From: Candidatus Peregrinibacteria bacterium
Lineage (GTDB): Bacteria > Patescibacteriota > Gracilibacteria > UBA1369 > JABINC01
Direction of reading: 5' to 3'
Length of the DNA: 64,000 nucleotides
NCBI GenBank assembly: GCA_030700255.1
Contig: JAUYJN010000043.1
Coordinates: 16,785-80,784 of the forward strand
In this document: in pieces, positions 1 through 13,064 of the stretch
Layout of the letters: each line of letters begins with the position of its first letter
How positions within the stretch are numbered: position 1 is the first letter of the stretch
Notes under the pieces: generated by a model
Told to the model about the DNA's origin: nothing
Databases searched by the model: none
The model's input: only the letters and a program-made list of their open reading frames with translations
Position numbers and translations under genes: made by a program

Positions 1-1990
1 CTGTTCCAACTACCGGAGCACTTGGTCTAAGTAGAGGTACTGCTTGACGTTGCATGTTCGATCCCATAGATGCACGAGTATTATCATCATGCTCGAGGAA
101 TGGAATAAGTGCAGTCGTTACAGATATAATTTGTTTTGGTGATATATCGATATGTGTAACATCATCTATATGCATAGATCCCGGCTCTCCATCCTTTCTT
201 GCCGCAACACGATTTGTTGTGAATTCCCACATATCATTTATTTCTGAACTTGCTTGCGCAATCACTAAAACTTTTTCTTTTTCCGCATCGAAATATTCAA
301 TTTTAGTTCCAACATATGGATCAACTTTTACCTCATCAAGATTTTTGATTTTTTCAATTTTCTCAGCAAGTTTTTCATCTATTACCGTACCTGATTTAAT
401 TATTACAGACTCCCCTTTCTTTACAGTCTCCCTTATAGTTCTTCCTACTAAATCTTTTGCTTTGTTTTTGACAGTTCTAAGTACCGGTCTAAATGGAGTT
501 TCAATAAATCCATATTGGTTTACTTTCGCATATGTCGCCAAATGAACCACAAGTCCGATATTTGGACCTTCCGGAGTTGCAATAGGACAGATACGCCCAT
601 AATGAGAAGCATGCACATCACGAACGTCAAACGACGCACGCTCTCTCGAAAGTCCACCAGGTCCCATAGCAGAAAGCCTTCTTTTATGAGCAAGTTCTGA
701 TAGTGGGTTTGTCTGATCCATGAACTGTGATAATTGAGAGCTTGAGAAAAATTCTCTAAGCGCCGCAGTTATTGGACGAGAATTAACCAGTTGTGTAGGT
801 GTGATAGTATCTAGGTCCATTACAGTCATACGGTCTTTAGCAATTCTTTCCGTACGAAGTAGACCAACTCTGAATTTGTTTTGCACAAGTTCTCCAACTG
901 ATCTAACACGACGATTTGCCAAATGATCGATATCATCAGGCCCAGCTTGTTTGTTATTTATCGCTATAAGATGTTTTAAAATTAAAATAAAATCATCTAC
1001 TTGGAAAACGTGATTTTTTCTTACGTTCTTAACATCAAGTCCGAATCTGTTATTTAATTTGTATCTTGCTACGTTACCCATGTCATATTTCTTGTAATCA
1101 AAGAACATAGATTCAACCAATGATTTTGCATTTTCGGTTGTAGCCATGTCTCCAGGTCGTAGTTTTTTGTAAATACTTTTAAGAGCTTCTTCGACTGTTT
1201 TAGCAGAATCCTTCTCAAGTGTATTTAAAATATAATTAGCTTCCGGATTTATGTTTAATTCATCTTTGAATAAACCTAGGATATCTTTGTCTTTTTCGTA
1301 TCCGAATACTCGAAGTAGAGATGTTACAGGAATCTTTCTTTTACGATCTATCTTTACATATATAATACCTTTCTTGTCAGTTTCAACTTCTAGCCACACT
1401 CCACGTTTTGGAATTATTTTCGCACTTCCAAATTGAGGTGCAGCCGGATTGAGTGAGAAGAAAACACCGGTTGATCTAACTATCTGAGATACAACGACTC
1501 TTTCAATTCCATTAACAATGAATGTACCTTTGTCAGTCATAAGTGGGACAGATCCCAGGAATACATCTTGCTCTTTAATTTCACCACTCTCTTTATTAAT
1601 AAGTTGAACGTGTACTTTCAATGGTGCTTCGAATGATAAATTCTTTCTTCTTGCTACTTTTGGATCGTATTTTGCTTCACCAATTTCGTGATCCAGGAAA
1701 TGCAGTTCGATTTTTTTACCGGAGAAATCTGTAATTGGAGTTACTTCGTCAAGAAGTTCTCTAATTCCGTTTTCTAGGAAATCCTTATATGAATTGAGTT
1801 GTACCTCAATCAAATTTGGAATATGTGAATCGAACGGGTCAGCAGAAAAACACACTCTGCCATTTTTTAACCTTGGTAAGTGAAGTTTCTTTGTACCGCC
1901 TTTCTTTGAACCGTCTTTCTTTGGTGCCGCATTCGGCTTTACCACTTTTGCTGAGCTTGTTTTTGGGCTCACAGTTTTCTCTTTGGCCAT
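1..1990 (-). CDS. rpoB: DNA-directed RNA polymerase subunit beta, N-terminal ~663 codons (gene runs off the left edge)
   Basis: Own translation of the minus strand from ATG at 1988-1990 (MAKEKTVSPK...). It contains the blocks GTFIVNGIERVVVSQ, RRLSAMGPGGLSRERA and HASHYGRICPIATPEGPNIGL. It is missing from the ORF track only because no stop lies inside the window. Confidence 0.95.
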   Translation of the reverse strand, partial: MAKEKTVSPKTSSAKVVKPNAAPKKDGSKKGGTKKLHLPRLKNGRVCFSADPFDSHIPNLIEVQLNSYKDFLENGIRELLDEVTPITDFSGKKIELHFLDHEIGEAKYDPKVARRKNLSFEAPLKVHVQLINKESGEIKEQDVFLGSVPLMTDKGTFIVNGIERVVVSQIVRSTGVFFSLNPAAPQFGSAKIIPKRGVWLEVETDKKGIIYVKIDRKRKIPVTSLLRVFGYEKDKDILGLFKDELNINPEANYILNTLEKDSAKTVEEALKSIYKKLRPGDMATTENAKSLVESMFFDYKKYDMGNVARYKLNNRFGLDVKNVRKNHVFQVDDFILILKHLIAINNKQAGPDDIDHLANRRVRSVGELVQNKFRVGLLRTERIAKDRMTVMDLDTITPTQLVNSRPITAALREFFSSSQLSQFMDQTNPLSELAHKRRLSAMGPGGLSRERASFDVRDVHASHYGRICPIATPEGPNIGLVVHLATYAKVNQYGFIETPFRPVLRTVKNKAKDLVGRTIRETVKKGESVIIKSGTVIDEKLAEKIEKIKNLDEVKVDPYVGTKIEYFDAEKEKVLVIAQASSEINDMWEFTTNRVAARKDGEPGSMHIDDVTHIDISPKQIISVTTALIPFLEHDDNTRASMGSNMQRQAVPLLRPSAPVVGT

Positions 1991-2039
1991 GTAGATGTAA
2001 TTAATTGTAATTTTTTTTCACAGTTTAAATCGCATGGTT

Positions 2040-2215
2040 TGTTTGGCCGTATGAGAAACTTTTGGGTTTCTTCATAGTCCCGTGAGGGAGCAGGGCCACC
2101 ATGCAATAACACAATCGAAATGTATCTCGCGAATTTGCGAGACGGTGGGCGGTATGTGCGAACTAAAAGGATACACGCGCACAGGATTCTAAAGGCTCGT
2201 GTCGCCGAAGTCAAA
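2040..2215. other. GC-rich hairpin-dense spacer between the pilin-like ORF and rpoB (rpoB leader or small RNA; strand unresolved)
   Basis: Local GC is clearly above the flanks. Hairpins: 2051-2075; CCC-GUGA-GGG at 2079-2088; TCTCGC/GCGAGA at 2125-2142; TGTGCG/CGCACA at 2155-2183. The track ORF 1969..2214 (-) has no recognisable family and looks spurious. Confidence 0.3.
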
Positions 2216-2220
2216 CGATT

Positions 2221-2373
2221 TTACTTGTTTTTATAAAGTTCGTGAGATGGTATCAAAATAGAAGCTGAACCATCTGTCGAATTATTCTTACTTAAGATGG
2301 CGAGGGCTATGACTCCTGCGAGTAATACTATAACGATAACTATTTCTATAGCTGTAAAAGCTTGTTTATTCAT
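2221..2373 (-). CDS. 50-aa protein with a type IV prepilin-like N-terminus
   Basis: Own translation: MNKQAFTAIEIVIVIVLLAGVIALAILSKNNSTDGSASILIPSHELYKNK*. QA/FTAIE followed by a hydrophobic helix matches the prepilin cleavage/methylation motif. It is below the ORF-track length cutoff. Confidence 0.5.
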   Translation of the reverse strand: MNKQAFTAIEIVIVIVLLAGVIALAILSKNNSTDGSASILIPSHELYKNK

Positions 2374-2446
2374 AATTTATTTCTATTGGTTTCGCATTGT
2401 AGCATCTTTGTCTGCTTTGTAAAAAGAAAATTGGGATTTTAAGGAA

Positions 2447-2477
2447 ATGAAAAACCCCTTATTCAGGGGTTTTTCAT
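2447..2477. terminator. Intrinsic-terminator-like hairpin with flanking A/T runs (bidirectional shape)
   Basis: GAAAAACCCCT-tattc-AGGGGTTTTTC, with A-run upstream and T-run downstream. It lies about 65 nt after the stop of the 2541..3287 (-) gene. Confidence 0.5.
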
Positions 2478-2540
2478 TTTGATTCGAGGATAGGTGGCAT
2501 GAACAGCATTAATTAATGGCTTTGTGTTTTGGTTTTATTT

Positions 2541-3287
2541 CTATTTTGCGAGATATTTTTTACAGAATGCTATGCTATCTTTCAAACTTTTGAGCACCGC
2601 ATCATCAGCTCCTATTTGTAAATGTTTCGGGTTAATTTTTATAGATAGTGAACCTTTGTAGCCTTCTTCCGTTAGTTTGGTAAGGAAGCTTTCCATAGGT
2701 AAGAGTCCATCATGTGGTGGATATCCTCCATGACCTTTTTTAACATTTGAAATATGTATATGCACCAAATATTTCATCATTTTCTTGAGGGTAGTTATTA
2801 GGTCTTCTTTTTTGTCTACAGTTCTACCTGTATCGAGACATGCATGTTTGAACTTTTTTAATTCTGAAAGATTGTTCATCGCGTGTTCAGGGAAAATTCC
2901 AAGTATTGTAGTCGATGGGGCATTCTCCATGGCGATAGATATTCTTTCTTCTTTCCTTATTCTTGGAACTTCGTTTTTTAGCCAGTTTGTTAGTTTCACT
3001 TCATAAACTTTTGGTGATTGAAGTATAAGTATCTTCGCACCTATTTCTTTTGTGAGTTCTATGTATTCAAGTATTTTTTTCTGACCGGTACTCTCAGGAA
3101 CTTGCACTGAAATTATTTCTACACCAAACTCATTGATTAGCTCTTTTAAGTAATGTGCATTTTTTGTATCAAAATCCTTTTCTATAACTTGTAAATCTAC
3201 ACCGTCAAAACCAGCTTCTTTCGCAAATTCGAAGACTCTGTTTAGTCCGTACCCTCGGAGGCTGTCTGTTGATAAGACGATTTTCAT
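2541..3287 (-). CDS. Sugar phosphate isomerase/epimerase (xylose isomerase-like TIM barrel) family protein
   Basis: 248-aa ORF. The N-terminal pattern LNRVFEFAKEAGFDGVDL and overall layout resemble the AP endonuclease 2 / xylose isomerase-like TIM-barrel family. Confidence 0.65.
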   Translation of the reverse strand: MKIVLSTDSLRGYGLNRVFEFAKEAGFDGVDLQVIEKDFDTKNAHYLKELINEFGVEIISVQVPESTGQKKILEYIELTKEIGAKILILQSPKVYEVKLTNWLKNEVPRIRKEERISIAMENAPSTTILGIFPEHAMNNLSELKKFKHACLDTGRTVDKKEDLITTLKKMMKYLVHIHISNVKKGHGGYPPHDGLLPMESFLTKLTEEGYKGSLSIKINPKHLQIGADDAVLKSLKDSIAFCKKYLAK

Positions 3288-3392
3288 AATTTTGTTTGTA
3301 TTTGTTTTAACTGTCCGAAATATAGTAACAAATTTTTACGATTGCAACAAGAAAAGTTAATTGATTTGACAAATCTACTTGAATCATTATAA

Positions 3393-3767
3393 ATGAGTAT
3401 AGTTTTATTAAATTATCTGATTTATATGTCCATTGAAGCTTATGAAGATTTAGATGGTACCTTGGATTACTTTCTAAGGGTAGAGAGTGGTGAGGTTGAT
3501 TATGTCGTTTGGAATCAACTGGTAAGATATGAATTGTTTAGAGTATTAAATCAAGGTGGGTTGTATTATTTGGAATTGATGAGGGATCTAGGCCTGCAAA
3601 AATTGAATGATTTGTCGAATTGTGAATTGACTGATGAAGAGCCTATTTTAAACAATTTAGCCGTACCACCAGCGCAACCTTTTACTAGGTCTCTAGGTGA
3701 TAATTTTGAAAAAATCCCTAAACCAACGAGGTGGCGTAAGAGAGATAGAAGAGGTATTTTACCTTAA
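3393..3767 (+). CDS. Hypothetical protein (124 aa)
   Basis: Intact ORF in an otherwise empty gap. No family recognised. The start is uncertain (an internal Met is at codon 12). Confidence 0.35.
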   Translation: MSIVLLNYLIYMSIEAYEDLDGTLDYFLRVESGEVDYVVWNQLVRYELFRVLNQGGLYYLELMRDLGLQKLNDLSNCELTDEEPILNNLAVPPAQPFTRSLGDNFEKIPKPTRWRKRDRRGILP

Positions 3768-3779
3768 ATGTGTAAATAG

Positions 3780-5060
3780 CTATACTTTACTAGCTTGCTT
3801 TATAGTCGTTCTTCCCTCCATGTAGTCTTGAAGTACTTCAGGGATATTTATAGAGCCATCGGCGTTTTGGTTGTTTTCGATTAGTGCGATGAGGAAGCGA
3901 GGCGTCGCTATCGCTGTGTTGTTGAGTGTGTAGCAGAATTTGATTTTGCCTTCAGAGTCTTTGTATCGTAGGTTCAGACGTCGAGCTTGAAAGTCTTTGA
4001 ATGAAGTAGCTGAGTGTGTTTCGCCATATCCGTTGCGTGACGGCATCCAGCATTCGATGTCATGCGAAGTGTATTTGCCAAGTGCGAGATCCCCCGTGCA
4101 AAGTTGAAGCAGCCTGTATGGGATTTTCAAATCATCCAATACCTCCTGCGCATTATTTAAAATTGTTTCATGCCATTTGTCAGATTGTTCTGTATCCGCC
4201 GCAAGAACTACTACTTGTTCCACTTTGTTAAATTGATGGATTCTATAAAGTCCTTTGGTGTCCTTGCCATAACTTCCCGCTTCGCGGCGGAAGCATGGCG
4301 ACATCGCGACATATGTTTTTGGTAATTCATCTTCAGATAAAATTTCATCTTTGTGGTATGCGGTTAGTGGTATTTCAGCTGTCGCGATGAGCCATTTGTC
4401 ATCACGTTCCAGATTGTATGCATCATCCTCCCCTCCAGGGAAATATCCGGTGCCACGCAAACAATCTGTGTCTACCATGTATGGCACAAGCATAGGTGTA
4501 AATCCTTTTCCTACAATTTTTTTAAATGTGTATTGAAGTACCGCTTGTTCGAGAAGAGCCCCATCTCCTTTGAGGAAATAGCTCCTTGCACCTGATAATT
4601 TCACTCCGCGTTCAACATCGACCATATCATGCATTTCCATAAGCGTCATGTGATCCTTTGGTTCAAAACCAAACGCAGGGATTTCACCACGAGTATAAAC
4701 TTCTACATTTTCAGTTTCATCTTTTCCGATTGGAGTGTCCTCTCTAACCGGCATAGGCACTCTGAGCATAAGCGTTTCAAACTCTTCCAGAATTCCTCGC
4801 AATTTTTCATCCGCTTCTTTTTCTTTGTCTCCAACCATTTTCATTTCCAGTATCGCTTCTTGTTTTCCCGTTCCTTCCAGCACCGCTATTTTTTCGGATG
4901 CCTTGTTTTTTTCAGCTTTTAATTCTTCTGTTTGTTGAATAAGTGTACGACGTTCTTCATCCACCTCAAGTAATCGATCTATATCAACAGTGGATTTTTT
5001 TTGTCCACACGTTTTCTTGATCAGATCTACGTTTTCGCGAATGAATTTTATGTCGAGCAT
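3780..5060 (-). CDS. serS: Serine--tRNA ligase
   Basis: 426 aa. N-terminal coiled-coil arm (MLDIKFIRENVD...) and a class II core (FRREAGSYGKDTKGLYRIHQFNKVE, GETHSATS). Confidence 0.95.
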   Translation of the reverse strand: MLDIKFIRENVDLIKKTCGQKKSTVDIDRLLEVDEERRTLIQQTEELKAEKNKASEKIAVLEGTGKQEAILEMKMVGDKEKEADEKLRGILEEFETLMLRVPMPVREDTPIGKDETENVEVYTRGEIPAFGFEPKDHMTLMEMHDMVDVERGVKLSGARSYFLKGDGALLEQAVLQYTFKKIVGKGFTPMLVPYMVDTDCLRGTGYFPGGEDDAYNLERDDKWLIATAEIPLTAYHKDEILSEDELPKTYVAMSPCFRREAGSYGKDTKGLYRIHQFNKVEQVVVLAADTEQSDKWHETILNNAQEVLDDLKIPYRLLQLCTGDLALGKYTSHDIECWMPSRNGYGETHSATSFKDFQARRLNLRYKDSEGKIKFCYTLNNTAIATPRFLIALIENNQNADGSINIPEVLQDYMEGRTTIKQASKV

Positions 5061-5128
5061 GTATATGTGGTTATTGGAAAAAACGTGTATATCTTAATAG
5101 AGGTCTGGATGTATTGCAACGTGGGTAT

Positions 5129-5401
5129 TCATCCTGTTCCTAATCGATTGTGTGTGCCAGCATATCTGATAAATATATTTTTATCGTCTATACGGAAAAT
5201 AATTCTATAATCTTTGTTCATTTTTATCTCAAGGTATTTGAATTTTTTAAATTCACCTTTGAGAGTGTCAATAGGGTATGGAAAATTAGTGGTTCCATTT
5301 TCAATAAAATGTTCAAAACAAACCAGCGTCTTTTTTCGTATATGCTTAGGCGCCTTCCTCAATTCTTTTTGAGCATCTTTATGTAGGTGGAGGGTAAACA
5401 T
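5129..5401 (-). CDS. RelE/ParE-superfamily type II toxin
   Basis: 90 aa. ...KDYRIIFRIDDKNIFIRYAGTHNRL is the typical RelE/StbE C-terminal pattern. It sits 3 nt downstream of a RelB/DinJ-like ORF. Confidence 0.75.
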   Translation of the reverse strand: MFTLHLHKDAQKELRKAPKHIRKKTLVCFEHFIENGTTNFPYPIDTLKGEFKKFKYLEIKMNKDYRIIFRIDDKNIFIRYAGTHNRLGTG

Positions 5402-5404
5402 ACA

Positions 5405-5641
5405 TTAATCTATGTCGAGTAGGGATTTTAAATGTTTTTTTGATTTGATTTTTGTGTAATTTGTTAGTGTGTCATTCTCCTCCAAATTAAGTTCAAATGG
5501 AACCTTTTTTTTAAGAATGATTTGTTTATAGAAAATTGTAATTGCTTGAGTATGATTCATCCCAAGAGCTTCTAGAATGTTTTCAGCGTCTTTTTTTAAT
5601 TTTGGTTCAATTCTTGCATGAATCATTGATGTTTTTGGCAT
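5405..5641 (-). CDS. RelB/DinJ-family antitoxin
   Basis: 78 aa. The N-terminus MIHARIEPKLKKDAENILEALGMNHTQAITIFYKQI matches the DinJ/RelB ribbon-helix-helix pattern. It is paired with the downstream toxin. Confidence 0.75.
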   Translation of the reverse strand: MPKTSMIHARIEPKLKKDAENILEALGMNHTQAITIFYKQIILKKKVPFELNLEENDTLTNYTKIKSKKHLKSLLDID

Positions 5642-5658
5642 TTTTTAATATTAAAAAT

Positions 5659-5696
5659 TGTGTACACATCGTATCACGTTTGATATACAAGATCAA
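5659..5696 (-). promoter_or_regulatory. Sigma70-like promoter plus palindromic operator for the relBE-like pair
   Basis: Minus strand: TTGATC (5691-5696), 17-nt spacer, TACGAT (5668-5673). A 10-bp perfect palindrome TGTGTACACA (5659-5668) abuts the -10 element. Confidence 0.45.
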
Positions 5697-5876
5697 GGTT
5701 AAGAATTTGTTATTTTTTTAACTCTCCGCCCCATTTGTCCACACCGAGTACGTCGTAAAGCTCTTCAATTTGCGCTATTTCCCTACCAATTGCCTATTTG
5801 CATGAATGTTTCGGACGGAGCGTTGTTTTTTCCGCATGATGAGTTACGTGATACTGTCCAAGGGATTATTCTTATA

Positions 5877-6163
5877 TTACCCAAAAAGATTCGAGTGATT
5901 GTCAGTTGCACAAAAAGTCATTGTTTCGGTTTGATCCGGATTTTGGTCTACTCTATATATCAAAAGCCAATTGCCTTCGATGTGGCATTCTCTGTATTTC
6001 GCCATTTCTCCTTGCAGTGCGTGATCTTTATGTGAAGGATTTAATTTCTCACCATCAATAAGCATATCCATAACATTTTTGAGTTTTCGCATATCTCTTC
6101 TGCCGGAATTTCTCAATTTCTTATAATCTTTCAGAAATTTTTCCCGTAAATTATTTCTCTCAT
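5877..6163 (-). pseudogene. yafQ: YafQ-family toxin gene interrupted by a 1-nt frameshift in an A5 run
   Basis: ATG at 6161-6163 reads MREIIYGKNF* (stop at 6131-6133). The -1 frame continues ...EKFLKDYKKLRNSGRRDMRKLKNVMDMLIDGEKLNPSHKDHALQGEMAKYRECHIEGNWLLIYRV...NLFG. Both parts align to YafQ (E. coli MIQRDIEYSGQYSKDVK...KDHPLQG..YRD.H.EPDW.LIY). One extra A in the run at 6138-6142 would restore a single 95-aa ORF. Confidence 0.7.
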
Positions 6164-6190
6164 AGCGATTGGTGATGAGAGAGAATTATC

Positions 6191-6454
6191 TTAAAGCTTA
6201 TCCAAAAAGTCAAACGCATCTTTTTTATTCTTGAATCTTACAGAGCCTTTATTTTTTTCTATATCTTTTAAAGCTTTTGCGAGCTCCGCATTCGGTACTT
6301 TTGAAGGCAAAAAGGGGAAACCCTGAGCCCTTTTGATTTCCGTGTAGAATATGGTGATCGCTTGCGCCGGTTTGATACCCTGTCCTTCCAGAATCATCTC
6401 CGCTTCTTTTTTGAGATTCGAATCTATGCGATGCTGTATTCGAGTTGATGGCAT
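6191..6454 (-). CDS. dinJ: DinJ/RelB-family antitoxin
   Basis: 87 aa. RIQHRIDSNLKKEAEMILEGQGIKPAQAITIFYTEI matches the DinJ fold pattern. It lies directly upstream of the yafQ-like gene. Confidence 0.8.
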   Translation of the reverse strand: MPSTRIQHRIDSNLKKEAEMILEGQGIKPAQAITIFYTEIKRAQGFPFLPSKVPNAELAKALKDIEKNKGSVRFKNKKDAFDFLDKL

Positions 6455-6521
6455 GTGAATGTTTTATTAATTGGTGACGTTTGCACCCTAATTGTACTCC
6501 AAGTTTCAAATATGGTCAAAC

Positions 6522-6713
6522 AAAAAGTCTGCCCGCCAAGTTCTATAATAAAGTCGACCACTTTGAGTTTAAATAGGTATACACAATAGAAATTGATTGA
6601 TGTCAAAAATTTCGGTGCCGAAAAAATGGACGGAGCGGGGTGGATATTGTGAGATGTTATTTCCATGCGTTCATCGAGTATTATGCACGGCCTCCGCGCG
6701 GAGGGTCAGAGAG
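6522..6713 (+). repeat. Mosaic intergenic repeat, copy A (modules M4-fragment, M1, M2, M6)
   Basis: Shares M1+M2 with 9657-9743 (about 5 mismatches in 87 nt by eye). Contains the palindromes TTTCGGTGCCGAAA (6610-6623) and CCTCCGCGCGGAGG (6691-6704). M6 (6688-6713) is identical to 7907-7932. Confidence 0.85.
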
Positions 6714-7545
6714 CTTTTTTTATGCTCTTCTCTCTTTTCAAATAATTCTTTTGGCTCACGATTTTTTGTCCGGTTTGTTGTTCGAGTTCGAGCCGTGCTT
6801 TTTTTGAGATACCTCCGCCGATTTTGCCTGCAATTTTATTTTCAGTCATTCCGGTCGCTTCTACACTTTGTGCGATTTGTCTTGTCGAAAGTTCCGCGAG
6901 AGCGGTGAATATTAATTCGGCTTCAGTCATATGGTCACGTAGATTTTGAGTTTTCAATCCTTTGATTTTTTTGTGATTTTTTACGCTTAAGTCAGTCCAC
7001 TCTTTGTGTATAATGTCTGTTAAAATAGCAAATTCCCGTCCTTCTTTTATATCATGTACGCTCCAATAGTCGGTGAGTTTATTGCGTGTTTCTTGTCCCA
7101 TCATCCTTTGTTCTATCCACTTCTTGCTTCGGCCGTGCTTCTGCCAGTTTTCTCTTGCGCGATTGAGAGATTTTTCCGGATCGGAAATTTCTTGTACTCG
7201 TTCATACCCGACTTTTGCCAGCCAGAGCTTGACCGGTTCGGCCTTTGGAGAAGGAACGGATTGGATGAGGCGGAGAAGGGTTTCTACATCAGCCACATCT
7301 GTGAGGTATTTTTTGCCATCCGCAGCCTCTAATTTCAGTTTGTCACATTTTGTGACAGACTCATTTCCCTCTTTTTTTAAGCGATTTTTCAAGGTAGTCC
7401 AATAACTTTGAGCTTTTTTAAAATCCTGTTGTTCAGTTAAGGCGGCGATAATATCTATTACCGAAAAATACCATGTTTCTGTTTTTTCATCGTAATGCCT
7501 GCGAATTCTGAAATTTTCAAATATAGCGAGTGTACTCTGTTCCAT
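6706..7545 (-). CDS. Bro-N domain protein / DNA-damage-inducible protein D (DinD)-like
   Basis: 279 aa. The N-terminus FENFRIRRHYDEKTETWYFSVIDIIAALT...VETLLRLIQSVPSPKAEPVKLWLA is a typical Bro-N (antirepressor-type) domain. The C-terminal half resembles DinD-family proteins. Confidence 0.7.
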   Translation of the reverse strand: MEQSTLAIFENFRIRRHYDEKTETWYFSVIDIIAALTEQQDFKKAQSYWTTLKNRLKKEGNESVTKCDKLKLEAADGKKYLTDVADVETLLRLIQSVPSPKAEPVKLWLAKVGYERVQEISDPEKSLNRARENWQKHGRSKKWIEQRMMGQETRNKLTDYWSVHDIKEGREFAILTDIIHKEWTDLSVKNHKKIKGLKTQNLRDHMTEAELIFTALAELSTRQIAQSVEATGMTENKIAGKIGGGISKKARLELEQQTGQKIVSQKNYLKREKSIKKAL

Positions 7546-7659
7546 AAATTATCGGGTTATTTTTTCACATAAATGATCGTGGAAAAGAAGTATCCTGAAG
7601 ATTTTTACGAAAGTCAAAGATTTTAGGATTAGTTTAAGAATTGTTTAGAACTATCACTA

Positions 7660-8016
7660 TACGTTTGAATATTTGCCATGGTGAATGAAGTCGACCGATG
7701 TCAAAAATTTCGGCGCCGAAAAAATGGACAAGTGTTGCGAGATATTGCGTTTTATCTTATTCCCCCTCTGTACGAAAAAGTCTGCCCGCTCGTCCCGCCT
7801 TGGCGGTGTGGCAGACTTTCATGGTCGATTTTTGGCTTGTGGCGGGGGTTATGGCATCATATACTGCGTTCGTCGAGTTTTCGCATGAATGTTAATGCAT
7901 TATGTACGGCCTCCGCGCGGAGGGTCAGAGAGTCGAATGACAAAATGAGAATATGTCAAAAATTTCTGCACCGAAAAAATGGACAAGTATTGCGAGGTGT
8001 GGTGTGAAGTGTTGTT
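7660..8016 (+). repeat. Mosaic intergenic repeat, copies B and B' (diverged M1, M2, M3, M4, M5, M6, then a second M2/M3')
   Basis: TTTCGGCGCCGAAA at 7708-7721 and TTTCTGCACCGAAA at 7963-7976 (255-nt period). Hairpin AAGTCTGCC..GGCAGACTT at 7778-7818. CCTCCGCGCGGAGG at 7910-7923. 7730-7828 matches 9744-9819. Confidence 0.85.
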
Positions 8017-8155
8017 TGTTATAAAAACTCATTTTCTTTCTTAACTATAAATAACACCTACAGGTTTTTGCAACGGTTTCAGTGACAGTACGTACGTAGA
8101 CATCTTGTACGGACCAGTATATAAGGCTTGTTACAGTTTAATATTTATTTATGAC

Positions 8156-9169
8156 ATGGCTTACAGTCTAAGGGATAGCAATTGGGTTGCTTCCAAAAAC
8201 TTGAATAAAAAAAGGATGATTTTTCTTGACACTTGTTTTTGGACGAAGTTCGTTGATGGCGAAAAAAGTTTTAAAGACTTGGTAGTTCTACTTGCAAGAC
8301 TTGTTGCCGAGGGCAAGGTGCATGTAGTTGTGAATGGTTTTTTATTAAGTGAGATTGCAGCCATTGGAGATGATGCCCAGGTTGATACAATATTTAACTT
8401 GATACAAAAATTGTCATCCAATGTATATATGCGACGTTTTGTAACGATCTTAGAATTAGAATTTGATGCACAAAAAGTTATCATGAATCATGATACTGCA
8501 TCGGTGAGCCATTTGAAATTAGAAGAAATTTTCGGTTGTTTTTGGGAATCCGTACATGCGTTTGAATATGAATCTGAGGAGGAGCTTAAGGATATGTCTA
8601 TTGAAGATAGGGACTATATTTTACGAGGCGTAGCGGAGAAATTTTATGCCGATTTGCCGATCAATTATTCAAAAACGATGTTGAGAGAATGTGGGCGAAA
8701 ATTCAAAGTGGCAATGCAGGATCTTTGTAAAAAATGTAAGAATGACAAAATAGCTGTTCTTCAAAAGGCTATTCTTGATGCCCAAAAGCAGTCGTTTGCC
8801 TCGTTCCTTGTCAAAGATACTGCAGAGGCGATTAAAATGCTTTCGAGTTTACCGAGAGCGAGTAGTGACAAGGAGGAAGCGGAGGTATCAATGGAAAAAA
8901 TTCGTAATGCATATTGCTCCAGGTCTACACATGATGGGTTGCTTTTACTCCTTGGACATTTCAAGAGAAATAAAGGGAAGCATCTCAAGTCAAATGATAT
9001 TTATGATACTCTTAACGTAGGAACAGTTATTCCGTATTGCGATATGATTTTTTGTGATTTATCTACCAGAAACCACTGTATGCAGTCAGGATTAGATAAA
9101 AAATTTCAGGTTGAAATTTATTCTGAGCGAGAGATAGATCTTTTTAAGCAAAAGCTCGAGCAGTTGTAA
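8156..9169 (+). CDS. Hypothetical protein with possible split PIN-like signature
   Basis: ORF-track frame 8105..9169 starts at TTG; the first ATG is 8156 and another is at 8216 (MIFLDTCFW...). An N-terminal IFLDTCFW and a C-terminal DMIFCDLSTRN are reminiscent of the first and last acidic motifs of PIN-like (DUF4935-type) domains. This is a weak assignment. Confidence 0.5.
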   Translation: MAYSLRDSNWVASKNLNKKRMIFLDTCFWTKFVDGEKSFKDLVVLLARLVAEGKVHVVVNGFLLSEIAAIGDDAQVDTIFNLIQKLSSNVYMRRFVTILELEFDAQKVIMNHDTASVSHLKLEEIFGCFWESVHAFEYESEEELKDMSIEDRDYILRGVAEKFYADLPINYSKTMLRECGRKFKVAMQDLCKKCKNDKIAVLQKAILDAQKQSFASFLVKDTAEAIKMLSSLPRASSDKEEAEVSMEKIRNAYCSRSTHDGLLLLLGHFKRNKGKHLKSNDIYDTLNVGTVIPYCDMIFCDLSTRNHCMQSGLDKKFQVEIYSEREIDLFKQKLEQL

Positions 9170-9273
9170 ATCTGTGATTATAATCTTTTGTCGCCTGAGG
9201 GGAGTAAATGGTAGGTCTTTTTGCCAATTTTGAGTGAATGCAAGTATGCCTTCACTTCAGGTGTAGGTCTCAT

Positions 9274-9462
9274 TCATTGCAATTTTATTTTTTTACTCAA
9301 TTTTCCGATCACTTTCGTTACTTTAACTTTAATTACATTATCAATTTGCTCAAGTGGAGCTGTATCAAAATTTATGGATGGTTTTTCATTCTCATGTTTT
9401 TTCAAAAATGATTCGCCATCTTTCCCCCGTAAGCACCCATTGTCAATTTTTATTTGAGCCAT
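9274..9462 (-). CDS. Small hypothetical ORF, probably the 3' remnant of a truncated gene
   Basis: The frame stays open upstream to 9582 (DKIKKPDPEAQRTLYAENLKSFADAIDGFIKEF...) with no start codon. It is preceded by tandem TAA TAA. No family recognised. Confidence 0.25.
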   Translation of the reverse strand: MAQIKIDNGCLRGKDGESFLKKHENEKPSINFDTAPLEQIDNVIKVKVTKVIGKLSKKIKLQ

Positions 9463-9654
9463 AATTTCAATAACTTGTCCTATGAATTCTTTTATAAATC
9501 CATCTATGGCGTCTGCGAATGATTTAAGATTTTCGGCATATAAAGTTCTTTGTGCTTCAGGATCAGGTTTTTTTATTTTATCTTATTAAGTTGACGTGCA
9601 TTTCATTTTTTCTTGTAAATCAAGCGTATAAAATACACCAAATGAACAAAATAT

Positions 9655-9841
9655 TAATAATAAAGCCGACCACTTTGAGTTTAAATAGGTATACACAATA
9701 GAAGTTGACCGATGTCAAAAATTTCGGCGCCGAAAAAATGGACAAGTGTTGCGAGATATTGCGTTTTGTCCTATTTCCCCTCTGTACGAAAGTCTGCCCG
9801 GGCAGAGATTCATGGTCGGTTAATCGCTCAAATAAGCGATT
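9655..9841 (+). repeat. Mosaic intergenic repeat, copy D (M1-M2-M3-M4), with 7-nt inverted termini
   Basis: CCGACCA (9666-9672) and TGGTCGG (9813-9819) bound a 154-bp unit. Contains TTTCGGCGCCGAAA (9722-9735) and the perfect palindrome TCTGCCCGGGCAGA (9793-9806). It is followed by the hairpin AATCGCT-caaata-AGCGATT (9822-9841). Confidence 0.85.
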
Positions 9842-9892
9842 TGACTATAAAAACGTGGTTTATACACCACAATTAGCGGGGAGGTTTTTTTC

Positions 9893-10216
9893 TTACTTCC
9901 CGAGTGCGAGATCTCGAAGGAAACTGGAGATTGAGTTATAACCTGATTCGACAGCTTTTCTTTCAATTGCTTTTTTATCCTCTGGCGCGACTCTGAAACG
10001 GATCAATTCAGCGTGCTGTTTTTTATATTTTTGTTCGGCGAGAATAAGTTTCGGAAGATCATTAAGCAAATCAACTATATCTTCATTCAAAAATTCTTGT
10101 TTGATATGAGCATCTTTACATTCGATAATTGTAGTCTTTTTATCTATCGGCGAAATCGTATAAGAGTACTTCTTATTTTTCAAAGTAATAAAATGTTTGA
10201 TTGATGATTTTTTCAT
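9893..10216 (-). CDS. hicB: HicB-position antitoxin with C-terminal ribbon-helix-helix domain
   Basis: 107 aa, immediately downstream of hicA. The C-terminus IRFRVAPEDKKAIERKAVESGYNSISSFLRDLALGK is an RHH/CopG-type DNA-binding motif. Confidence 0.6.
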   Translation of the reverse strand: MKKSSIKHFITLKNKKYSYTISPIDKKTTIIECKDAHIKQEFLNEDIVDLLNDLPKLILAEQKYKKQHAELIRFRVAPEDKKAIERKAVESGYNSISSFLRDLALGK

Positions 10217-10239
10217 AAATTGATTAGTGATTGAGGATC

Positions 10240-10485
10240 TTAATAAAGATGATTTTTGATAATTAATTTTGCCGCTAAGTCCTTATAAAAGGTTTTGCAA
10301 TCGTTGTGATGGAGGGGAATAACGAGGTCTCTATCCAGAGAATGGTGTTTAAACTTTTCATGGCTTCCACCTTGAACGGGCAAATACTCAAAGCCTAATT
10401 TCAAAAGAATTTTTTTAATTTGGTCATAACGTACACTGCCGGGATTTTTCAGGAATTTAACAATCAGCTTTTCTATCTGTGTCAT
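10240..10485 (-). CDS. hicA: HicA-family mRNA interferase toxin
   Basis: 81 aa. LKLGFEYLPVQGGSHEKFKHHSLDRDLVIPLHHNDCKTFYKDL matches the HicA (YcfA) GSH..F.H...IP.H pattern. Confidence 0.8.
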   Translation of the reverse strand: MTQIEKLIVKFLKNPGSVRYDQIKKILLKLGFEYLPVQGGSHEKFKHHSLDRDLVIPLHHNDCKTFYKDLAAKLIIKNHLY

Positions 10486-10504
10486 CTTTCATAACAAGAA
10501 TAAT

Positions 10505-10541
10505 GTGGCTACATTATATATGGATGTAGCTACGAAGTCAA
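10505..10541 (-). promoter_or_regulatory. Sigma70-type promoter with overlapping inverted-repeat operator for hicAB
   Basis: Minus strand: TTGACT (10536-10541), 17-nt spacer, TATAAT (10513-10518). The inverted repeat GTAGCTACAT / ATGTAGCCAC (10524-10533 and 10505-10514, 9/10 match) flanks the -10. Confidence 0.6.
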
Positions 10542-10575
10542 TGGTCGATTTTTGGTTTGTGGCAGGGGTTTTGCT
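10536..10575 (+). repeat. Partial mosaic repeat, copy E (M4 end + M5)
   Basis: atggtcgatttttggtttgtggcaggggtt (10541-10570) matches 7821-7850 with 2 mismatches. Confidence 0.75.
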
Positions 10576-10584
10576 ATTTTTTCG

Positions 10585-11085
10585 CTATCTCAAGTTGAAA
10601 AGAGTGTAAAGAATAAATCCGCTTAATGTTAAAAGAACTAAATATGTTGATCTTTTTCTGTCGAATTTGTATTTTTTAGTACGATTTTCAATATAGTCTT
10701 CATATCTTTCGACTACTTCTCCTTTTATAAAAGTGCCGTCTTCTAATGGTTGTTGTAAAGGGATTGCGGAAGTTTTAGCCTCAGGAGTGTCAGGTAATGC
10801 GAACGCACTATATTTCCCAAGCTGACGCACCGCCTCGCCTGAAAATGTAAGCCCACGAGCTTCTAAATTATTTTGAGTATCTTCGATTTCTTTTTGAAGT
10901 CTGGCCCCCGCTTCTTTCATATCATATTCAAATTCATTTTTTAGTCGAGCGCGATCATTTAGCCATAAAAATATGTGTAAAACTAATACCGAAATAAAAA
11001 AGAAGATAACAGTACCGTCTGATTCCCAAATTTTTGAAGTCATCTCCATGAATTTCCAGTCTACATCTTTAGTTGCATCTTCCAT
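10585..11085 (-). CDS. Hypothetical membrane protein (two predicted TM helices)
   Basis: 166 aa, located 11 nt downstream of dnaK. Hydrophobic segments VIFFFISVLVLHIFLWL and LVLLTLSGFILYTLF. Confidence 0.5.
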   Translation of the reverse strand: MEDATKDVDWKFMEMTSKIWESDGTVIFFFISVLVLHIFLWLNDRARLKNEFEYDMKEAGARLQKEIEDTQNNLEARGLTFSGEAVRQLGKYSAFALPDTPEAKTSAIPLQQPLEDGTFIKGEVVERYEDYIENRTKKYKFDRKRSTYLVLLTLSGFILYTLFNLR

Positions 11086-11096
11086 TTATATATATT

Positions 11097-13064
11097 TTAC
11101 TTCCCCTCATCCACAACCTCTCCTTCAACTACTTCTTCGTCTTTGTTGTTGTCGGTGACTTTTACGCCATCATCCGCGCTATCGCCGGAGGTGCCGCCTT
11201 CTTCAGATGAGCCTTCATGCGAAGCATTCGCTTCGCTGGTCTTAGCGGCTTCGTACATTGCCGCACCGACTTTTTGGATTTCTTCGGAGAGTGATTCCGT
11301 TGCTTTTTTGAGAGCGTCGAGATCGAGGTCGGGTTTTGCCAGTTCGTCTTTTACTGCTTGTATTTTTTCTTCAACCGGTTTCTTGACGTCGTCTGCAACT
11401 TTGTCTCCAGAATCCTTAAGAAGTTTTTCGGATTGGAATATCAGTGACTCGGCTTGGTTTTTCACTTCGGCGAGATCTTTTTTCTTTGCGTCTTCTTCGG
11501 CGTGAATTTCGGCTTCTTTCCTTAGTTTCTCTACTTCTTCGTCAGAGAGTCCAGAGCTTCCGGTGATTGTAATGTGTTGCTCTTTGTTTGTTGCTTTGTC
11601 TTTTGCTCGTACGCTAAGTATACCGTTGGCATCGATGTCAAATGCGACCTCTACCTGTGGCACTCCGCGCGGAGCCGGTGGAATTCCGTCCAGTATAAAT
11701 CTACCGAGAGATTTGTTGTCTGCGGCCATTGGTCGTTCACCTTGAAGTACGTTTATTTCAACTGAAGGCTGATTGTCAGAATAAGTTGAGAATGTTTGTG
11801 CTTTTGAAGTTGGTATAGTTGAGTTTCTCTCAATCATTGGAGTTGCTACTCCTCCTGCAGTTTCGATACTTAGAGTAAGTGGGGTTACGTCGAGTAGGAG
11901 AATGTCTTTAACATCTCCCTGAAGTACTCCACCTTGGATAGCGGCACCAAGTGCAACTACTTCGTCCGGATTAATTCCTTTGTGAGGCTCTTTTCCGAAA
12001 ATTTCTTTTACTTTTGCTTGAACTGCCGGCATACGAGTAGTTCCACCAACCAGTAAAACCTCTTCAATATCGCTCGCAGAAAGTTTTGCATCCTTGAGTG
12101 CGGCTTTACATGGTGCGACAACTTTTTCTATTACATCGCTCACGAGTTCTTCGAACTTCGCTCGCGTAATTTTCATATTAAGATGCTTTGGGCCACTTGC
12201 ATCTGCCGTGATAAACGGTTGGTTGATTGTAGTTTCTTGCGCAGTCGAAAGTTCGATTTTTGCTTTCTCAGCATCTTCTTTAACTCTTTGAAGAGCCATG
12301 TTGTCCTTACTCAGATCAACTCCTGTTTCTTTTTTGAATTCTTGAATTATATAGTCGATAAGCACTTCGTCGAAATCATCCCCACCGAGGGTTGTGTCAC
12401 CGTTTGTAGATAAAACTTCAAATTGTTTTTCACCTTCTACATTGTCGATTTCGAGAATTGATACGTCGAAAGTACCTCCACCAAAGTCGAATACTGCAAC
12501 TTTGTGCTCACCTTGTTTTTTGTCGATCCCATATGCGAGAGCAGCTGCCGTTGGTTCGTTGATAATACGTTTTACTTCAAGCCCTGCGATTTTACCCGCA
12601 TCCTTAGTCGCTTGTCTCTGTGAATCATTGAAGTATGCAGGAACTGTTATTACAGCCTCTGTAACTTCCTGACCGAGGTATGCCTCTGCATCCGCTTTGA
12701 GTTTTTGAAGAACCATAGCTGAGATTTCAGCTGGTCGCCTCATCTCTCCGCCCAGCTCGATTTCAGCCTCATTCTTTTTACCTTTAGCCACCTTAAAAGG
12801 CATTCTTTTTACGAGTCCTGATTTCTCTACTTCTGCAAATGTTTTACCAATAAATCTTTTTGCAGAGAAAATTGTTTGTTCCGGATTAGTAATTGCTTGG
12901 CGTTTTGCTAAAGTTCCTACGAATCTTTCACCATCTTTCATAGCTACGACTGATGGAGTAGTACGGTTACCTTCCGCATTTGTAATAATGACAGCTTCAC
13001 CGCCTTCCATAACAGCCATACAAGAGTTAGTTGTCCCGAGGTCGATTCCGATTATCTTTCCCAT
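11097..13064 (-). CDS. dnaK: Molecular chaperone DnaK (Hsp70)
   Basis: 655 aa. Contains [39 protein letters not shown] and other canonical Hsp70 signatures. Confidence 0.97.

What the first reader, a model, noticed from the sequence alone, without database searches (positions are those of the whole stretch)
6522..10575. Unannotated family of mosaic, palindrome-rich non-coding repeats separating the cassettes of the serS-dnaK island
Four intergenic stretches share sequence modules, all in the same orientation on the plus strand whatever the orientation of the flanking genes.

Modules:
- M1 (about 55 nt): 6545-6600 and 9657-9712.
- M2: gatgtcaaaaaTTTCGGYGCCGAAAaaatggac, with a 14-nt palindrome. 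Four copies at 6610-6623, 7708-7721, 7963-7976 and 9722-9735.
- M3-M4: 7730-7828 matches 9744-9819. It includes the hairpin AAGTCTGCC..GGCAGACTT (7778-7818), which in copy D is collapsed to the perfect palindrome TCTGCCCGGGCAGA (9793-9806).
- M5: tttttggYttgtggcRggggtt, at 7829-7850 and 10549-10570.
- M6: cggCCTCCGCGCGGAGGgtcagagag, identical at 6688-6713 and 7907-7932.

Each locus carries a different combination: A = M1-M2-x-M6; B = M2-M3-M4-M5-M6-M2'; D = M1-M2-M3-M4; E = end of M4 plus M5. This is a BIME-like mosaic rather than a simple duplication.

The M1-M4 unit in copy D (154 bp) is bounded by perfect 7-nt inverted termini, CCGACCA and TGGTCGG. The matching T/A variant (TCGACCA at 6554-6560; TGGTCGA at 7822-7828 and 10542-10548) sits at the same module borders in the other copies, which is MITE-like.

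Indels between copies destroy any common reading frame, so the family is non-coding. GC-rich palindromes are conspicuous in this AT-rich genome. I cannot match the family to a known RNA, REP/BIME, attC or IS end.
Basis: seen in the sequence. Interest (0 to 1): 0.72.

Follow-up and report, generated by a model that had tools for sequence, protein, structure and literature searches.

The report
Locus-specific junction repeat in toxin-antitoxin island
A roughly 280-base, hairpin-rich non-coding sequence recurs three to four times, always in the same direction, between unrelated toxin-antitoxin and defence genes in one small island of an uncultivated Peregrinibacteria genome; it looks like the seam at which these gene cassettes were joined, not a genome-wide repeat family.

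Summary
The repeats are real, at the stated coordinates, far beyond chance, and reproduced at 100% by an independent assembly. The "BIME-like mosaic of six modules" is not the best description. Every copy is collinear with one roughly 280-nt unit, S, which is complete only in copy B (7655-7932).

- A is S with two internal deletions.
- B2 is the start of a further unit.
- D and E are two halves of one unit, split by the self-contained HicA-RHH cassette (9820-10540), with ATGGTCG repeated directly on both sides.

S is non-coding, with no protein or Rfam match. It holds 5 of the window's 13 perfect palindromes of 14 nt or more. M1-M2-M3 form a roughly 100-nt imperfect palindrome.

No copy was found elsewhere in about 77 kb of this contig, in 82 loci from relatives, or in the GTDB representatives, JGI metagenomes, IMG/VR, phage or plasmid collections. 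Homologous cassettes in another organism lack S. attC, REP/BIME and MITE criteria are not met, and no recombinase was found among the 30 window ORFs screened.

Best reading, at moderate confidence: a lineage-specific cassette-junction sequence that serves as recombination substrate or scar and carries terminator-like hairpins on the gene strand. Interest is modest unless cassette mobility at the ATGGTCG core is shown.

The parts
7655..7932 (+). S(B): the only complete unit, in the order M1' (diverged), M2, M3, M4 hairpin, ATGGTCG core, M5, x, M6 hairpin
   Evidence: It is the reference to which A, D and E align collinearly. Logan contig L089 reproduces 7724-9696 at 100%.
7942..8017 (+). S(B2): start of a further unit (M2' and the first part of M3), 20 nt after M6 of S(B). 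Its palindrome is broken by two changes.
   Evidence: 87% identity to B1 and D over 53 nt.
6545..6713 (+). S(A): M1, M2, diverged M3, x, M6. It equals S(B) minus B 7765-7863 and 7879-7898. M6 overlaps the stop codon of the dinD-like gene.
6522..6536 (+). 15-nt exact copy of the 5' half of the M4 hairpin (AAAAAGTCTGCCCGC). It lies between the dinJ promoter and S(A). ATGGTC is at 6513-6518.
   Evidence: (family D6).
9657..9819 (+). S(D): M1, M2, M3 and M4 (with a 21-nt apical deletion that leaves the palindrome TCTGCCCGGGCAGA), ending at ATGGTCG. Inverted 7-mers CCGACCA (9666-9672) and TGGTCGG (9813-9819).
   Evidence: Folding z-scores are -3.4 (+ strand) and -4.0 (- strand).
10541..10577 (+). 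S(E): ATGGTCG core plus M5, which is the continuation of S(D) on the far side of the HicA-RHH cassette. It ends 8 nt from the stop codon of the 166-aa gene.
9820..10540 (-). HicA (10240-10485) and RHH/NikA-like (9893-10216) cassette, with its own promoter (10541-10513) and terminator (9871-9854). It is inserted into one S unit and flanked by direct ATGGTCG repeats (9812-9818 and 10541-10547).
6706..7545 (-). dinD/BRO-N-like gene (PADLOC PDC-S13 defence candidate), bracketed by S(A) and S(B)
8216..9462 (.). Cassette between S(B2) and S(D): orphan 317-aa gene (+, 8216-9169) and 62-aa ORF (-, 9274-9462)
5129..6519 (-). Two RelB-family toxin-antitoxin cassettes left of S(A): ParE/RelB (5129-5641) and frameshifted YafQ/RelB (5877-6454), the latter with promoter 6519-6491
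7699..7730 (+). M2: TGTC-A5-TTTCGGCGCCGAAA-A6-T-GGACA, the most conserved module (at least 94% in all four copies). It is the centre of an imperfect palindrome of about 100 nt formed by M1 and M3. On the - strand the hairpin is followed by UUUUU.
   Evidence: (I19, I20).
7778..7818 (+). M4 hairpin AAGTCTGCC...GGCAGACTT with an inner CCGCC/GGCGG stem. On the - strand it is followed by UUUUU, which is terminator-like.
7910..7923 (+). M6 palindrome CCTCCGCGCGGAGG, also at 6691-6704
   Evidence: (I13).

Best explanation
**What it is.** A single non-coding unit of about 280 nt, S, specific to this lineage and, as far as could be seen, to this locus. It lies in direct orientation at the junctions of a small island of horizontally acquired toxin-antitoxin and defence cassettes, between the dnaK operon and serS of a Candidatus Peregrinibacteria MAG (GCA_034376305.1). 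Its order is M1, M2, M3, M4, ATGGTCG, M5, x, M6.

**Shown.**
- The apparent mosaic is one unit modified by two deletions (copy A), a hairpin-tip deletion (copy D), a partial tandem restart (copy B2) and one insertion.
- The self-contained HicA-RHH cassette sits inside a unit. It splits the unit into D and E, with ATGGTCG repeated directly on both sides.

**Inferred.**
- S is the sequence at which cassettes are joined, and it acts as recombination substrate or scar. The mechanism would be either site-specific crossover at the ATGGTCG core, or S-by-S homologous recombination of cassette circles.
- Its conserved hairpins read as terminator-like stems followed by U-runs on the minus strand, the strand that carries most of the island's genes. 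M1 carries an outward promoter-like site. Each S would therefore also insulate neighbouring cassettes.
- The responsible recombinase, if any, is unknown and was not found in the window.
For: **One unit, not shuffled modules.**
- A, D and E align collinearly with B.
- D ends and E begins at the same position of the unit. The longest exact stretch shared by D and E is ATGGTCG. Two independent truncations coinciding like this in a 280-nt unit has a chance of about 3% (my estimate).

**The inserted segment is a complete cassette.**
- It has its own 11/12 consensus promoter abutting E and its own terminator.

**S has discrete ends.**
- A and D share the left end, ATAATAAAG.
- A and B share the right end, CAGAGAG.

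**Conservation is uneven.**
- Between A and B, M2, x and M6 match at 84 of 92 positions, against 22 of 35 in M3 (Fisher p = 3e-4).
- This fits constraint or gene conversion on specific modules.

**Structure.**
- S holds 5 of the window's 13 perfect palindromes of 14 nt or more.
- In A and D, M1 and M3 pair around M2. The segment GATATTGYG stays conserved inside the otherwise diverged M3 of copy A.
- Folding z-scores for D are -3.4 and -4.0.
- The hexamer GGTCGA/TCGACC is enriched in S: 4 observed against 0.26 expected.

**The cassettes move independently of S.**
- Contig L085, from another organism, has homologous relB, dinJ-yafQ and dinD cassettes (72-79% nucleotide identity) in a different order and without S.
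- There, homology stops about 20 nt short of S(A), and short of S on both sides of dinD.
- The closest species (SerS 79% identical) has neither the island nor S.

**The sequence is genuine.**
- An independent assembly reproduces it at 100%.
Against: - No integrase, transposase or Y1/HUH enzyme was found among the 30 window ORFs screened with Pfam.
- No inverted core-binding arms are visible around ATGGTCG, and the HicA-RHH segment has no terminal inverted repeats.
- Only one junction pair (D/E) shows the core duplication. The other cassette borders (dinD, the 317-aa gene) do not.
- The ATGGTC at 6513 is followed by an M4-like fragment, not by M5.
- Terminator and promoter roles rest on consensus scans only. 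The M2 stem is weak (5-6 bp). S(B) lies between divergent genes, where minus-strand termination serves no obvious purpose.
- With three to four copies there is no statistical power for covariation.
- Only about 77 kb of the genome could be inspected, so a dispersed family cannot be excluded.
Confidence: 0.45

Rival explanations
1. S, or its M1-M4 core bounded by CCGACCA/TGGTCGG, is a non-autonomous mobile element (MITE-, PATE- or REP/BIME-like). It would be dispersed through the genome and mobilised in trans by a transposase encoded elsewhere. The island would simply have collected several copies.
For: - The unit has discrete shared ends.
- All copies are in the same orientation.
- Hairpins lie near both ends, with the M6 hairpin 9 nt from the right end. 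This resembles IS200/IS605-type ends (my knowledge of that family).
- In copy D both inverted 7-mers read C...G, where A, B and E read T...A. That is a matched double change.
- Logan contigs break at the repeat.
Against: - No copy exists outside the 4-kb island in about 77 kb of the contig.
- There are no matches in any public collection.
- No target-site duplication flanks M1-M4 or S.
- The A/D similarity extends 9 nt beyond the left 7-mer.
- The 7-mer pair is complete in only one copy. TGGTCGR is common in the window, at 17 sites.
- No transposase was found in the window.
Confidence: 0.2
2. S is passive. It would be an ordinary intergenic stretch copied a few times by local segmental or tandem duplication and unequal crossing-over, then eroded by deletions. 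It would have no role in cassette acquisition or expression.
For: - The copies are confined to one 4-kb locus.
- They are collinear, differ by deletions, and include a tandem restart at B2.
- There are no homologues anywhere.
- The right end of M6 includes the last 8 nt of dinD in copy A, and the same bases are present in copy B. This is what copying of a gene-end fragment would produce.
Against: - The genes between the copies are unrelated, so duplication alone does not explain how different cassettes came to lie between copies.
- D and E share one breakpoint with a 7-nt direct repeat.
- The unit ends are shared between copies.
- Conservation is significantly uneven.
- Palindromes are strongly enriched.
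Confidence: 0.2
3. S encodes a product. It could be a small protein starting MSKISAPKKWT at M2 (65 aa in copy B, with a hydrophobic tail that resembles a type I toxin), or a structured small RNA. The other copies would be pseudogenes or paralogues.
For: - The two M2 changes in B2 (TCG to TCT and GCG to GCA) are synonymous in this frame and break the palindrome.
- By my own count, 8 of 13 differences fall on third codon positions (p about 0.035 before correction for the six frames).
- The + strand of copy B folds better than shuffles, with z = -2.8.
Against: - The frame is broken in A and D. The length difference in M4 is 23 nt, and the deletions in A total 119 nt.
- A six-frame query found no protein among 5.8 billion clusters.
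- HMMER against 1.84 billion representatives gave only one spurious repetitive hit.
- Rfam gave nothing, even at E up to 5.
- No + strand promoter was predicted in S.
- GT-rich DNA gives hydrophobic codons in any frame.
Confidence: 0.08
4. The array is an integron-type cassette array (CALIN) and the S units are attC sites.
For: - Repeats in one orientation separate toxin-antitoxin-rich cassettes.
- M1-M2-M3 is an imperfect palindrome of about 100 nt.
Against: - No RYYYAAC...GTTRRRY pair exists at attC spacing anywhere in 5000-11200, on either strand.
- The unit is 280 nt long (154 nt for M1-M4), against 57-141 nt for attC.
- The cassettes have their own promoters and mixed orientation.
- The one visible insertion lies in the middle of the unit, not at an R' box.
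- No IntI-like gene was found.
Confidence: 0.03
5. The repeats are an assembly artefact, either a collapsed or a chimeric repeat in a MAG.
For: - The sequence comes from a metagenome-assembled genome.
- The repeats share exact stretches of 37-61 nt. The order of segments across them depends on the original assembler.
Against: - Three independent Logan contigs match 1-6584, 7724-9696 and 9738-12015 at 100%.
- These contigs include the whole right part of B, B2, the D/HicA junction and the HicA/E junction.
Confidence: 0.02

Closest known systems
Integron attC sites / sedentary chromosomal integron arrays (for example Vibrio VCRs)
   Same: - Highly similar, structured, imperfectly palindromic repeats.
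- One orientation throughout.
- They separate unrelated cassettes, many of them toxin-antitoxin systems.
   Different: - No R''/R' boxes.
- The unit is two to four times longer.
- The cassettes carry their own promoters and lie in both orientations.
- The visible insertion point is mid-unit, with a 7-nt direct repeat.
- No IntI was found.
Composite SCC-type or tandem genomic islands delimited by direct repeats of the attachment site
   Same: - Serial accretion of cassettes next to a conserved gene.
- Every junction is marked by a direct repeat that contains the crossover core.
- The inserted HicA-RHH segment is flanked by a short direct repeat.
   Different: - The attachment repeats of those systems are 15-30 bp and derive from the end of the target gene. 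Here the repeat is about 280 nt.
- Only one cassette shows the core duplication.
- No recombinase gene is present in the island.
Modular intergenic repeats: E. coli BIMEs, pneumococcal BOX (A-B-C), Neisseria NIME/dRS3
   Same: - Non-coding, palindrome-containing intergenic DNA that can be described in modules.
- No sequence match to anything else.
   Different: - Those families have tens to hundreds of dispersed copies and true combinatorial module order.
- Here there are three to four collinear copies at one locus. Module differences are explained by deletions.
IS200/IS605-derived PATEs and MITEs
   Same: - Discrete ends.
- Subterminal hairpins.
- Uniform strand orientation.
- Short inverted 7-mers around M1-M4.
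   Different: - No dispersal was seen.
- No target-site duplication or target motif.
- No cognate transposase.
- The inverted 7-mers are complete in one copy only.
Repeat-embedded type I toxin-antitoxin loci (E. coli LDR and QUAD/Sib-Ibs)
   Same: - Intergenic direct repeats a few hundred nt long.
- A short hydrophobic ORF is possible.
- Strong secondary structure.
   Different: - The ORF is not conserved between copies.
- No homologues were found.

Membership tests
Integron attC / CALIN | R'' (RYYYAAC) and R' (GTTRRRY) boxes as an inverted pair at the ends of the site | tested here: not met
   A regex scan of 5000-11200 on both strands, at spacings of 47-167 nt, found no pair.
Integron attC / CALIN | Site length of 57-141 nt that folds as one imperfect hairpin with extrahelical bases | tested here: not met
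   The unit is about 280 nt long, and M1-M4 is 154 nt. The predicted fold is branched, with the M1/M3 hairpin, the M4 hairpin and a closing stem.
Integron attC / CALIN | Mostly promoterless cassettes in the same orientation as the sites, with intI and attI nearby (not required for CALIN) | tested here: not met
   The cassettes have their own promoter-like sites and lie on both strands. None of the 30 ORFs scanned has an integrase domain.
REP/BIME | Imperfect palindromes of 20-40 nt with a conserved head tetranucleotide, paired in alternating orientation | tested here: not met
   The palindromes M2, M4 and M6 are unrelated to one another. All units are direct, not alternating.
REP/BIME | Tens to hundreds of dispersed genomic copies, often with a RAYT gene | tested here: inconclusive
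   There are no copies outside the island in about 77 kb of the contig, and no Y1 transposase in the window.
MITE | Terminal inverted repeats at the true ends of the repeated unit | tested here: not met
   The pair CCGACCA/TGGTCGG is complete in copy D only. The A/D similarity starts 9 nt outside the left 7-mer. S continues past the right 7-mer in copy B.
MITE | Target-site duplication flanking each copy | tested here: not met
   No direct repeat flanks S or M1-M4. The only duplication, ATGGTCG, flanks the HicA-RHH cassette and not the repeat.
MITE | Multiple dispersed copies | tested here: inconclusive
   None was found in about 77 kb or in the public collections. The whole genome was not searched.
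IS200/IS605-type PATE | Subterminal hairpins at both ends, no inverted termini, no duplication, strand-specific insertion 3' of a short target motif, and a Y1 TnpA in the genome | tested here: inconclusive
   Hairpins lie near the ends and the orientation is uniform. No shared target motif is seen at the left flanks (AAGTTCT against AATATTA). No TnpA is present in the window.
Any Rfam RNA family | A covariance-model match | tested here: not met
   There were no matches at gathering score across the 64-kb window, and none at E up to 5 in 5600-10700.
Type I toxin-antitoxin repeat locus | A conserved short hydrophobic ORF present in the copies | tested here: not met
   The frame is broken in A and D. 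No homologues were found.
Tandem site-specific integration (att-repeat-delimited cassettes) | An identical short core directly repeated at both junctions of an inserted segment, interrupting an otherwise continuous site | tested here: met
   D and E together reconstitute S(B) across ATGGTCG, at 9812-9818 and 10541-10547.
Tandem site-specific integration (att-repeat-delimited cassettes) | A cognate integrase, and the core present at every cassette junction | tested here: not met
   No recombinase is present in the window. The junctions of dinD and of the 317-aa gene lack the core.

The most novel reading that the evidence does not exclude
The island is a working, integron-like cassette platform in a CPR bacterium that uses a different kind of junction. 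The junction would be a structured unit of about 280 nt with a 7-nt crossover core (ATGGTCG). Self-contained toxin-antitoxin and defence cassettes would be integrated and excised there by a recombinase that is not IntI and is encoded elsewhere. Each unit would also supply terminators and an outward promoter.
Probability: 0.12. Interest if true: 0.75.

Novelty: new member of a known kind. Interest (0 to 1): 0.33.

Why it matters
**If S is only a locus-specific scar or duplication.** It is a curiosity of one MAG. It is still useful as a warning that such repeats break assemblies of CPR genomes exactly at accessory islands.

**If cassettes really integrate at the ATGGTCG core.**
- It would show how reduced CPR genomes acquire and shuffle toxin-antitoxin and defence genes without a recognisable integron.
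- It would give a concrete, testable recombination site.
- The same cassettes (relB, dinJ-yafQ, dinD/PDC-S13) occur in another organism in another order. They therefore do circulate as small independent modules, and the mechanism that moves them is an open question.

Tried and rejected
1. **Searches for relatives.**
   - A degenerate M2 pattern found nothing in the GTDB representatives, JGI metagenomes or IMG/VR.
   - M5 found nothing in the metagenomes, and M6 nothing in IMG/VR.
   - blastn of copy B against phages and plasmids gave no match.
   - blastn of all copies against 82 loci around serS of relatives gave no match.
2. **Coding hypothesis.** The six-frame translation of B and D found no hit at E up to 10. 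The 65-aa ORF searched with full HMMER gave one spurious repetitive protein.
3. **RNA family.** Rfam gave nothing at gathering score or at E up to 5, and no tRNA or tmRNA was found.
4. **attC.** No R''/R' pairs were found.
5. **Recombinase hunt.** 30 ORFs across the window were scanned with Pfam, and none is a recombinase. The remaining ORFs were not scanned.
6. **Other assemblies or strains with presence/absence polymorphism.**
   - Exact-protein look-ups returned only the same strain.
   - Look-ups of dinD, the 317-aa protein and the first window ORF were 'not on record'.
   - The 166-aa neighbour of dnaK is an orphan, so no 'ancestral empty site' could be recovered.
7. **A decayed S copy between the two RelB cassettes (5642-5876).** Only an 11-nt match, GCATGAATGTT, was found, which is not convincing.
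8. **A weak M1-like hit beyond the window (L088 2905-2941).** It is an AT-rich chance match (E = 0.06) and no M2 lies next to it.
9. **oriT idea, prompted by the NikA/MobA/TraJ-like RHH.** Only sub-threshold RHH similarity was found, and there is no relaxase.
10. **Covariation.** Three sequences are too few.

Full report
**Context.** The window is the reverse strand of contig JAXMJY010000031.1 (87.9 kb) of GCA_034376305.1. The database labels its proteins Candidatus Peregrinibacteria. The closest representative genome by SerS (79% identity) is a Peregrinibacteria MAG.

The finding lies between serS (3780-5060, minus) and the hrcA-grpE-dnaK operon plus an orphan 166-aa gene (10585-13064, minus). 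The 5.5 kb in between holds small accessory modules:
- ParE/RelB (5129-5641).
- YafQ/RelB (5877-6454). The toxin is frameshifted.
- A dinD/BRO-N-like gene (6706-7545) that matches the PADLOC defence candidate PDC-S13 at E = 7e-117.
- An orphan 317-aa gene on the plus strand (8216-9169).
- A 62-aa ORF (9274-9462).
- HicA with an RHH (NikA-like) partner (9893-10485).

- All copies are on the plus strand, and shuffles give no matches.
- Three contigs assembled independently by Logan from SRR26726065 match window 1-6584, 7724-9696 and 9738-12015 at 100%. They end only inside the longest exact stretches shared between copies: 37 nt for A/D and 61 nt for B/D.
- The repeats are therefore genuine sequence, and they are what breaks short-k-mer assemblies here.

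**Anatomy.** Gapped alignment of each copy to copy B shows strict collinearity. B (7655-7932) carries the whole series: M1' (diverged), M2, M3, the M4 hairpin, ATGGTCG, M5, x and M6.
- Copy A is the same series lacking B 7765-7863 and 7879-7898. Its M3 is strongly diverged.
- Copy D has a 21-nt deletion of the tip of the M4 hairpin, which leaves the perfect palindrome TCTGCCCGGGCAGA. It stops at ATGGTCG.
- Copy E starts at ATGGTCG and carries M5.
- B2 (7942-8017) is the beginning of another unit, 20 nt after M6.

The 'different combination in each locus' is thus one unit of about 280 nt (S) with deletions, a truncation and a restart. It is not combinatorial shuffling as in BIMEs.

D plus E make one S unit interrupted by 721 bp (9820-10540). 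That segment holds HicA-RHH with its own 11/12 consensus promoter and its own terminator. It is flanked by the direct repeat ATGGTCG, which is the longest exact D/E match. Two independent truncations coinciding at the same position of a 280-nt unit has a chance of about 3% (my estimate). I read this as an insertion into S.

**Properties of S.**
- *Non-coding.* The M2-initiated frame (MSKISAPKKWT..., 65 aa in copy B) is broken in A and D. A six-frame query found nothing among 5.8 billion protein clusters. A full HMMER scan of 1.84 billion representatives gave one spurious repetitive hit. A mild excess of third-position changes (8 of 13, my count) is not significant after allowing for six frames.
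- *Not a known RNA.* Rfam gave nothing at gathering score, nor at E up to 5.
- *Palindrome-rich.* 5 of the window's 13 perfect palindromes of 14 nt or more lie in about 1% of the sequence.
- *Larger structure.* M1 and M3 are the arms of an imperfect palindrome of about 100 nt centred on M2 (AAATAGG:CCTATTT, CACAATA:TATTGYG, TGTC:GACA). It is kept in A and D even though the M3 of copy A is otherwise diverged.
- *Uneven conservation.* Between A and B, M2, x and M6 match at 84 of 92 positions, against 22 of 35 in M3 (p = 3e-4).
- *Hexamer enrichment.* GGTCGA/TCGACC occurs 4 times in S against 0.26 expected. The copies are homologous, however, so this is not independent evidence.
- *Minus-strand signals.* The minus strand carries most of the island's genes. 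On it, M4 (in copy B) and M2 read as hairpins followed by five U. M1 contains TTTAAA-17-TATTAT pointing out of the unit, and the A/D similarity ends exactly at that -10 box. These are consensus-level hints only.

**Distribution.**
- There is no further copy in the 64-kb window.
- There is none in the 6 kb and 7 kb of the contig on either side.
- There is none in the 82 loci around serS of relatives.
- Exact-pattern scans found nothing in the GTDB representatives, JGI metagenomes or IMG/VR, and phages and plasmids gave no match.
- The closest species has different genes upstream of serS and no island.
- Contig L085, from another organism, carries homologues of three of the cassettes (relB, dinJ-yafQ with its promoter/operator, and dinD) at 72-79% nucleotide identity. 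They lie in another order and without S. Homology stops at window 6501, 21 nt before S(A), and at 6744 and 7546 around dinD.
- The cassettes are therefore independent, horizontally moving modules. S belongs to this lineage's locus, not to the cassettes.
- This contradicts the 'UTR remnants of duplicated genes' alternative. It also gives no support to a widespread family.

**Comparison with known systems.**
- *attC.* No R''/R' boxes, the wrong size, cassettes with their own promoters in both orientations, and no IntI.
- *REP/BIME, BOX and NIME.* These need dispersal and true modular recombination, and neither was seen.
- *MITE.* The 7-nt inverted termini are complete in copy D only. Similarity overruns the left one by 9 nt, and no target-site duplication flanks the unit. 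The one point in its favour is that both 7-mers of copy D read C...G where the other copies read T...A. This is a matched change, compatible with pairing or with a shared binding protein.
- *IS200/IS605-type PATEs.* They share the subterminal hairpins and the uniform strand, but no target motif or TnpA was found.
- *Closest in logic.* The best analogy is a tandem, att-delimited cassette island (SCC-like or integron-like), with an unusually long and structured junction. Only one junction pair shows the core duplication, and no recombinase was found among the 30 ORFs screened.

**Verdict.**
- Confirmed: a real, non-coding, structured, direct junction repeat.
- Corrected: one unit with indels, locus-specific as far as can be seen, and not a BIME- or MITE-type mosaic family.
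- Best mechanistic reading (confidence about 0.45): S is the sequence at which cassettes are recombined into this island, with ATGGTCG as a crossover point. It incidentally provides terminator-like hairpins between cassettes.
- Rivals: a dispersed non-autonomous element (0.2), passive duplication (0.2), a small ORF or sRNA (0.08), attC (0.03), and an artefact (0.02).
- The decisive test is cheap. Search the SRR26726065 reads and the rest of the MAG for more S copies, for the D-E empty-site junction, and for the HicA-RHH circle junction.

Noticed in passing
window 5877-6190 (-): The YafQ toxin gene is frameshifted. MREIIYGKNF runs into a stop codon, and the YafQ domain then continues in another frame from a TTG. 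By reading the sequence, the homologue in L085 (about 4016-4301) looks uninterrupted; the translation I ran there was one base out of register and does not confirm this. The antitoxin gene of the pair is intact.
   Followed up: partly
window 9178-9462 (-): The database gene call for the NCBI record gives a 94-aa product that reads through an in-frame TGA at 9274-9276. Table 11 gives 62 aa. dnaK, serS and the other large ORFs listed in the window under table 11 are uninterrupted by TGA, so the genome appears to use the standard code. The 94-aa call is probably an annotation quirk.
   Followed up: partly
window 50318-50335 (inside ORF 49766-50800, +): An exact match of 16-18 nt (AAGTCTGCCCGGGCAG) to the M4 palindrome of copy D lies inside a 344-aa ORF that has no Pfam or NCBIfam hit. 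The blastn E-value is 0.03, so it may be chance between GC-rich palindromes.
   Followed up: partly
window 39693-39706: The perfect 14-nt palindrome AATGGTCGACCATT lies at the junction of two pyruvate:ferredoxin oxidoreductase-type genes. It joins the S core ATGGTCG to its reverse complement. This is probably a coincidence.
   Followed up: no
window 6706-7545 (-): The dinD/BRO-N-like protein matches PADLOC PDC-S13 at E = 7e-117. Its homologues are 75-84% identical in Patescibacteria, Omnitrophota and Margulisiibacteriota, an unusually conserved and apparently widely transferred single-gene module.
   Followed up: partly
L085 (Logan SRR22387965) 3660-5712 and 11387-11697: Another organism carries homologues of the window's relB, dinJ-yafQ (including a promoter/operator stretch 97% identical over 30 nt) and dinD cassettes. 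They are in a different order and are interspersed with an acetyltransferase and other genes.
   Followed up: partly
window 58676-60099 (+): Two adjacent paralogous LOG-type (Lysine_decarbox/LDcluster4) genes are about 72% identical at the DNA level. They are the largest direct repeat in the window.
   Followed up: no
window 16113-17117 (-) and 20723-21721 (+): Two full-length glyceraldehyde-3-phosphate dehydrogenase paralogues lie within 5 kb of each other.
   Followed up: no
L088 464-902 (about window 70250-70680, beyond the window end): A second HicB (UPF0150)/HicA pair sits near the end of the contig. No S-like sequence lies next to it.
   Followed up: partly
window 11663-11674 (inside dnaK): The 12-nt palindrome CTCCGCGCGGAG, the core of the M6 palindrome, occurs inside the dnaK coding sequence. 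The surrounding 26 nt are 81% identical to M6 (E = 0.26). This is probably chance.
   Followed up: no
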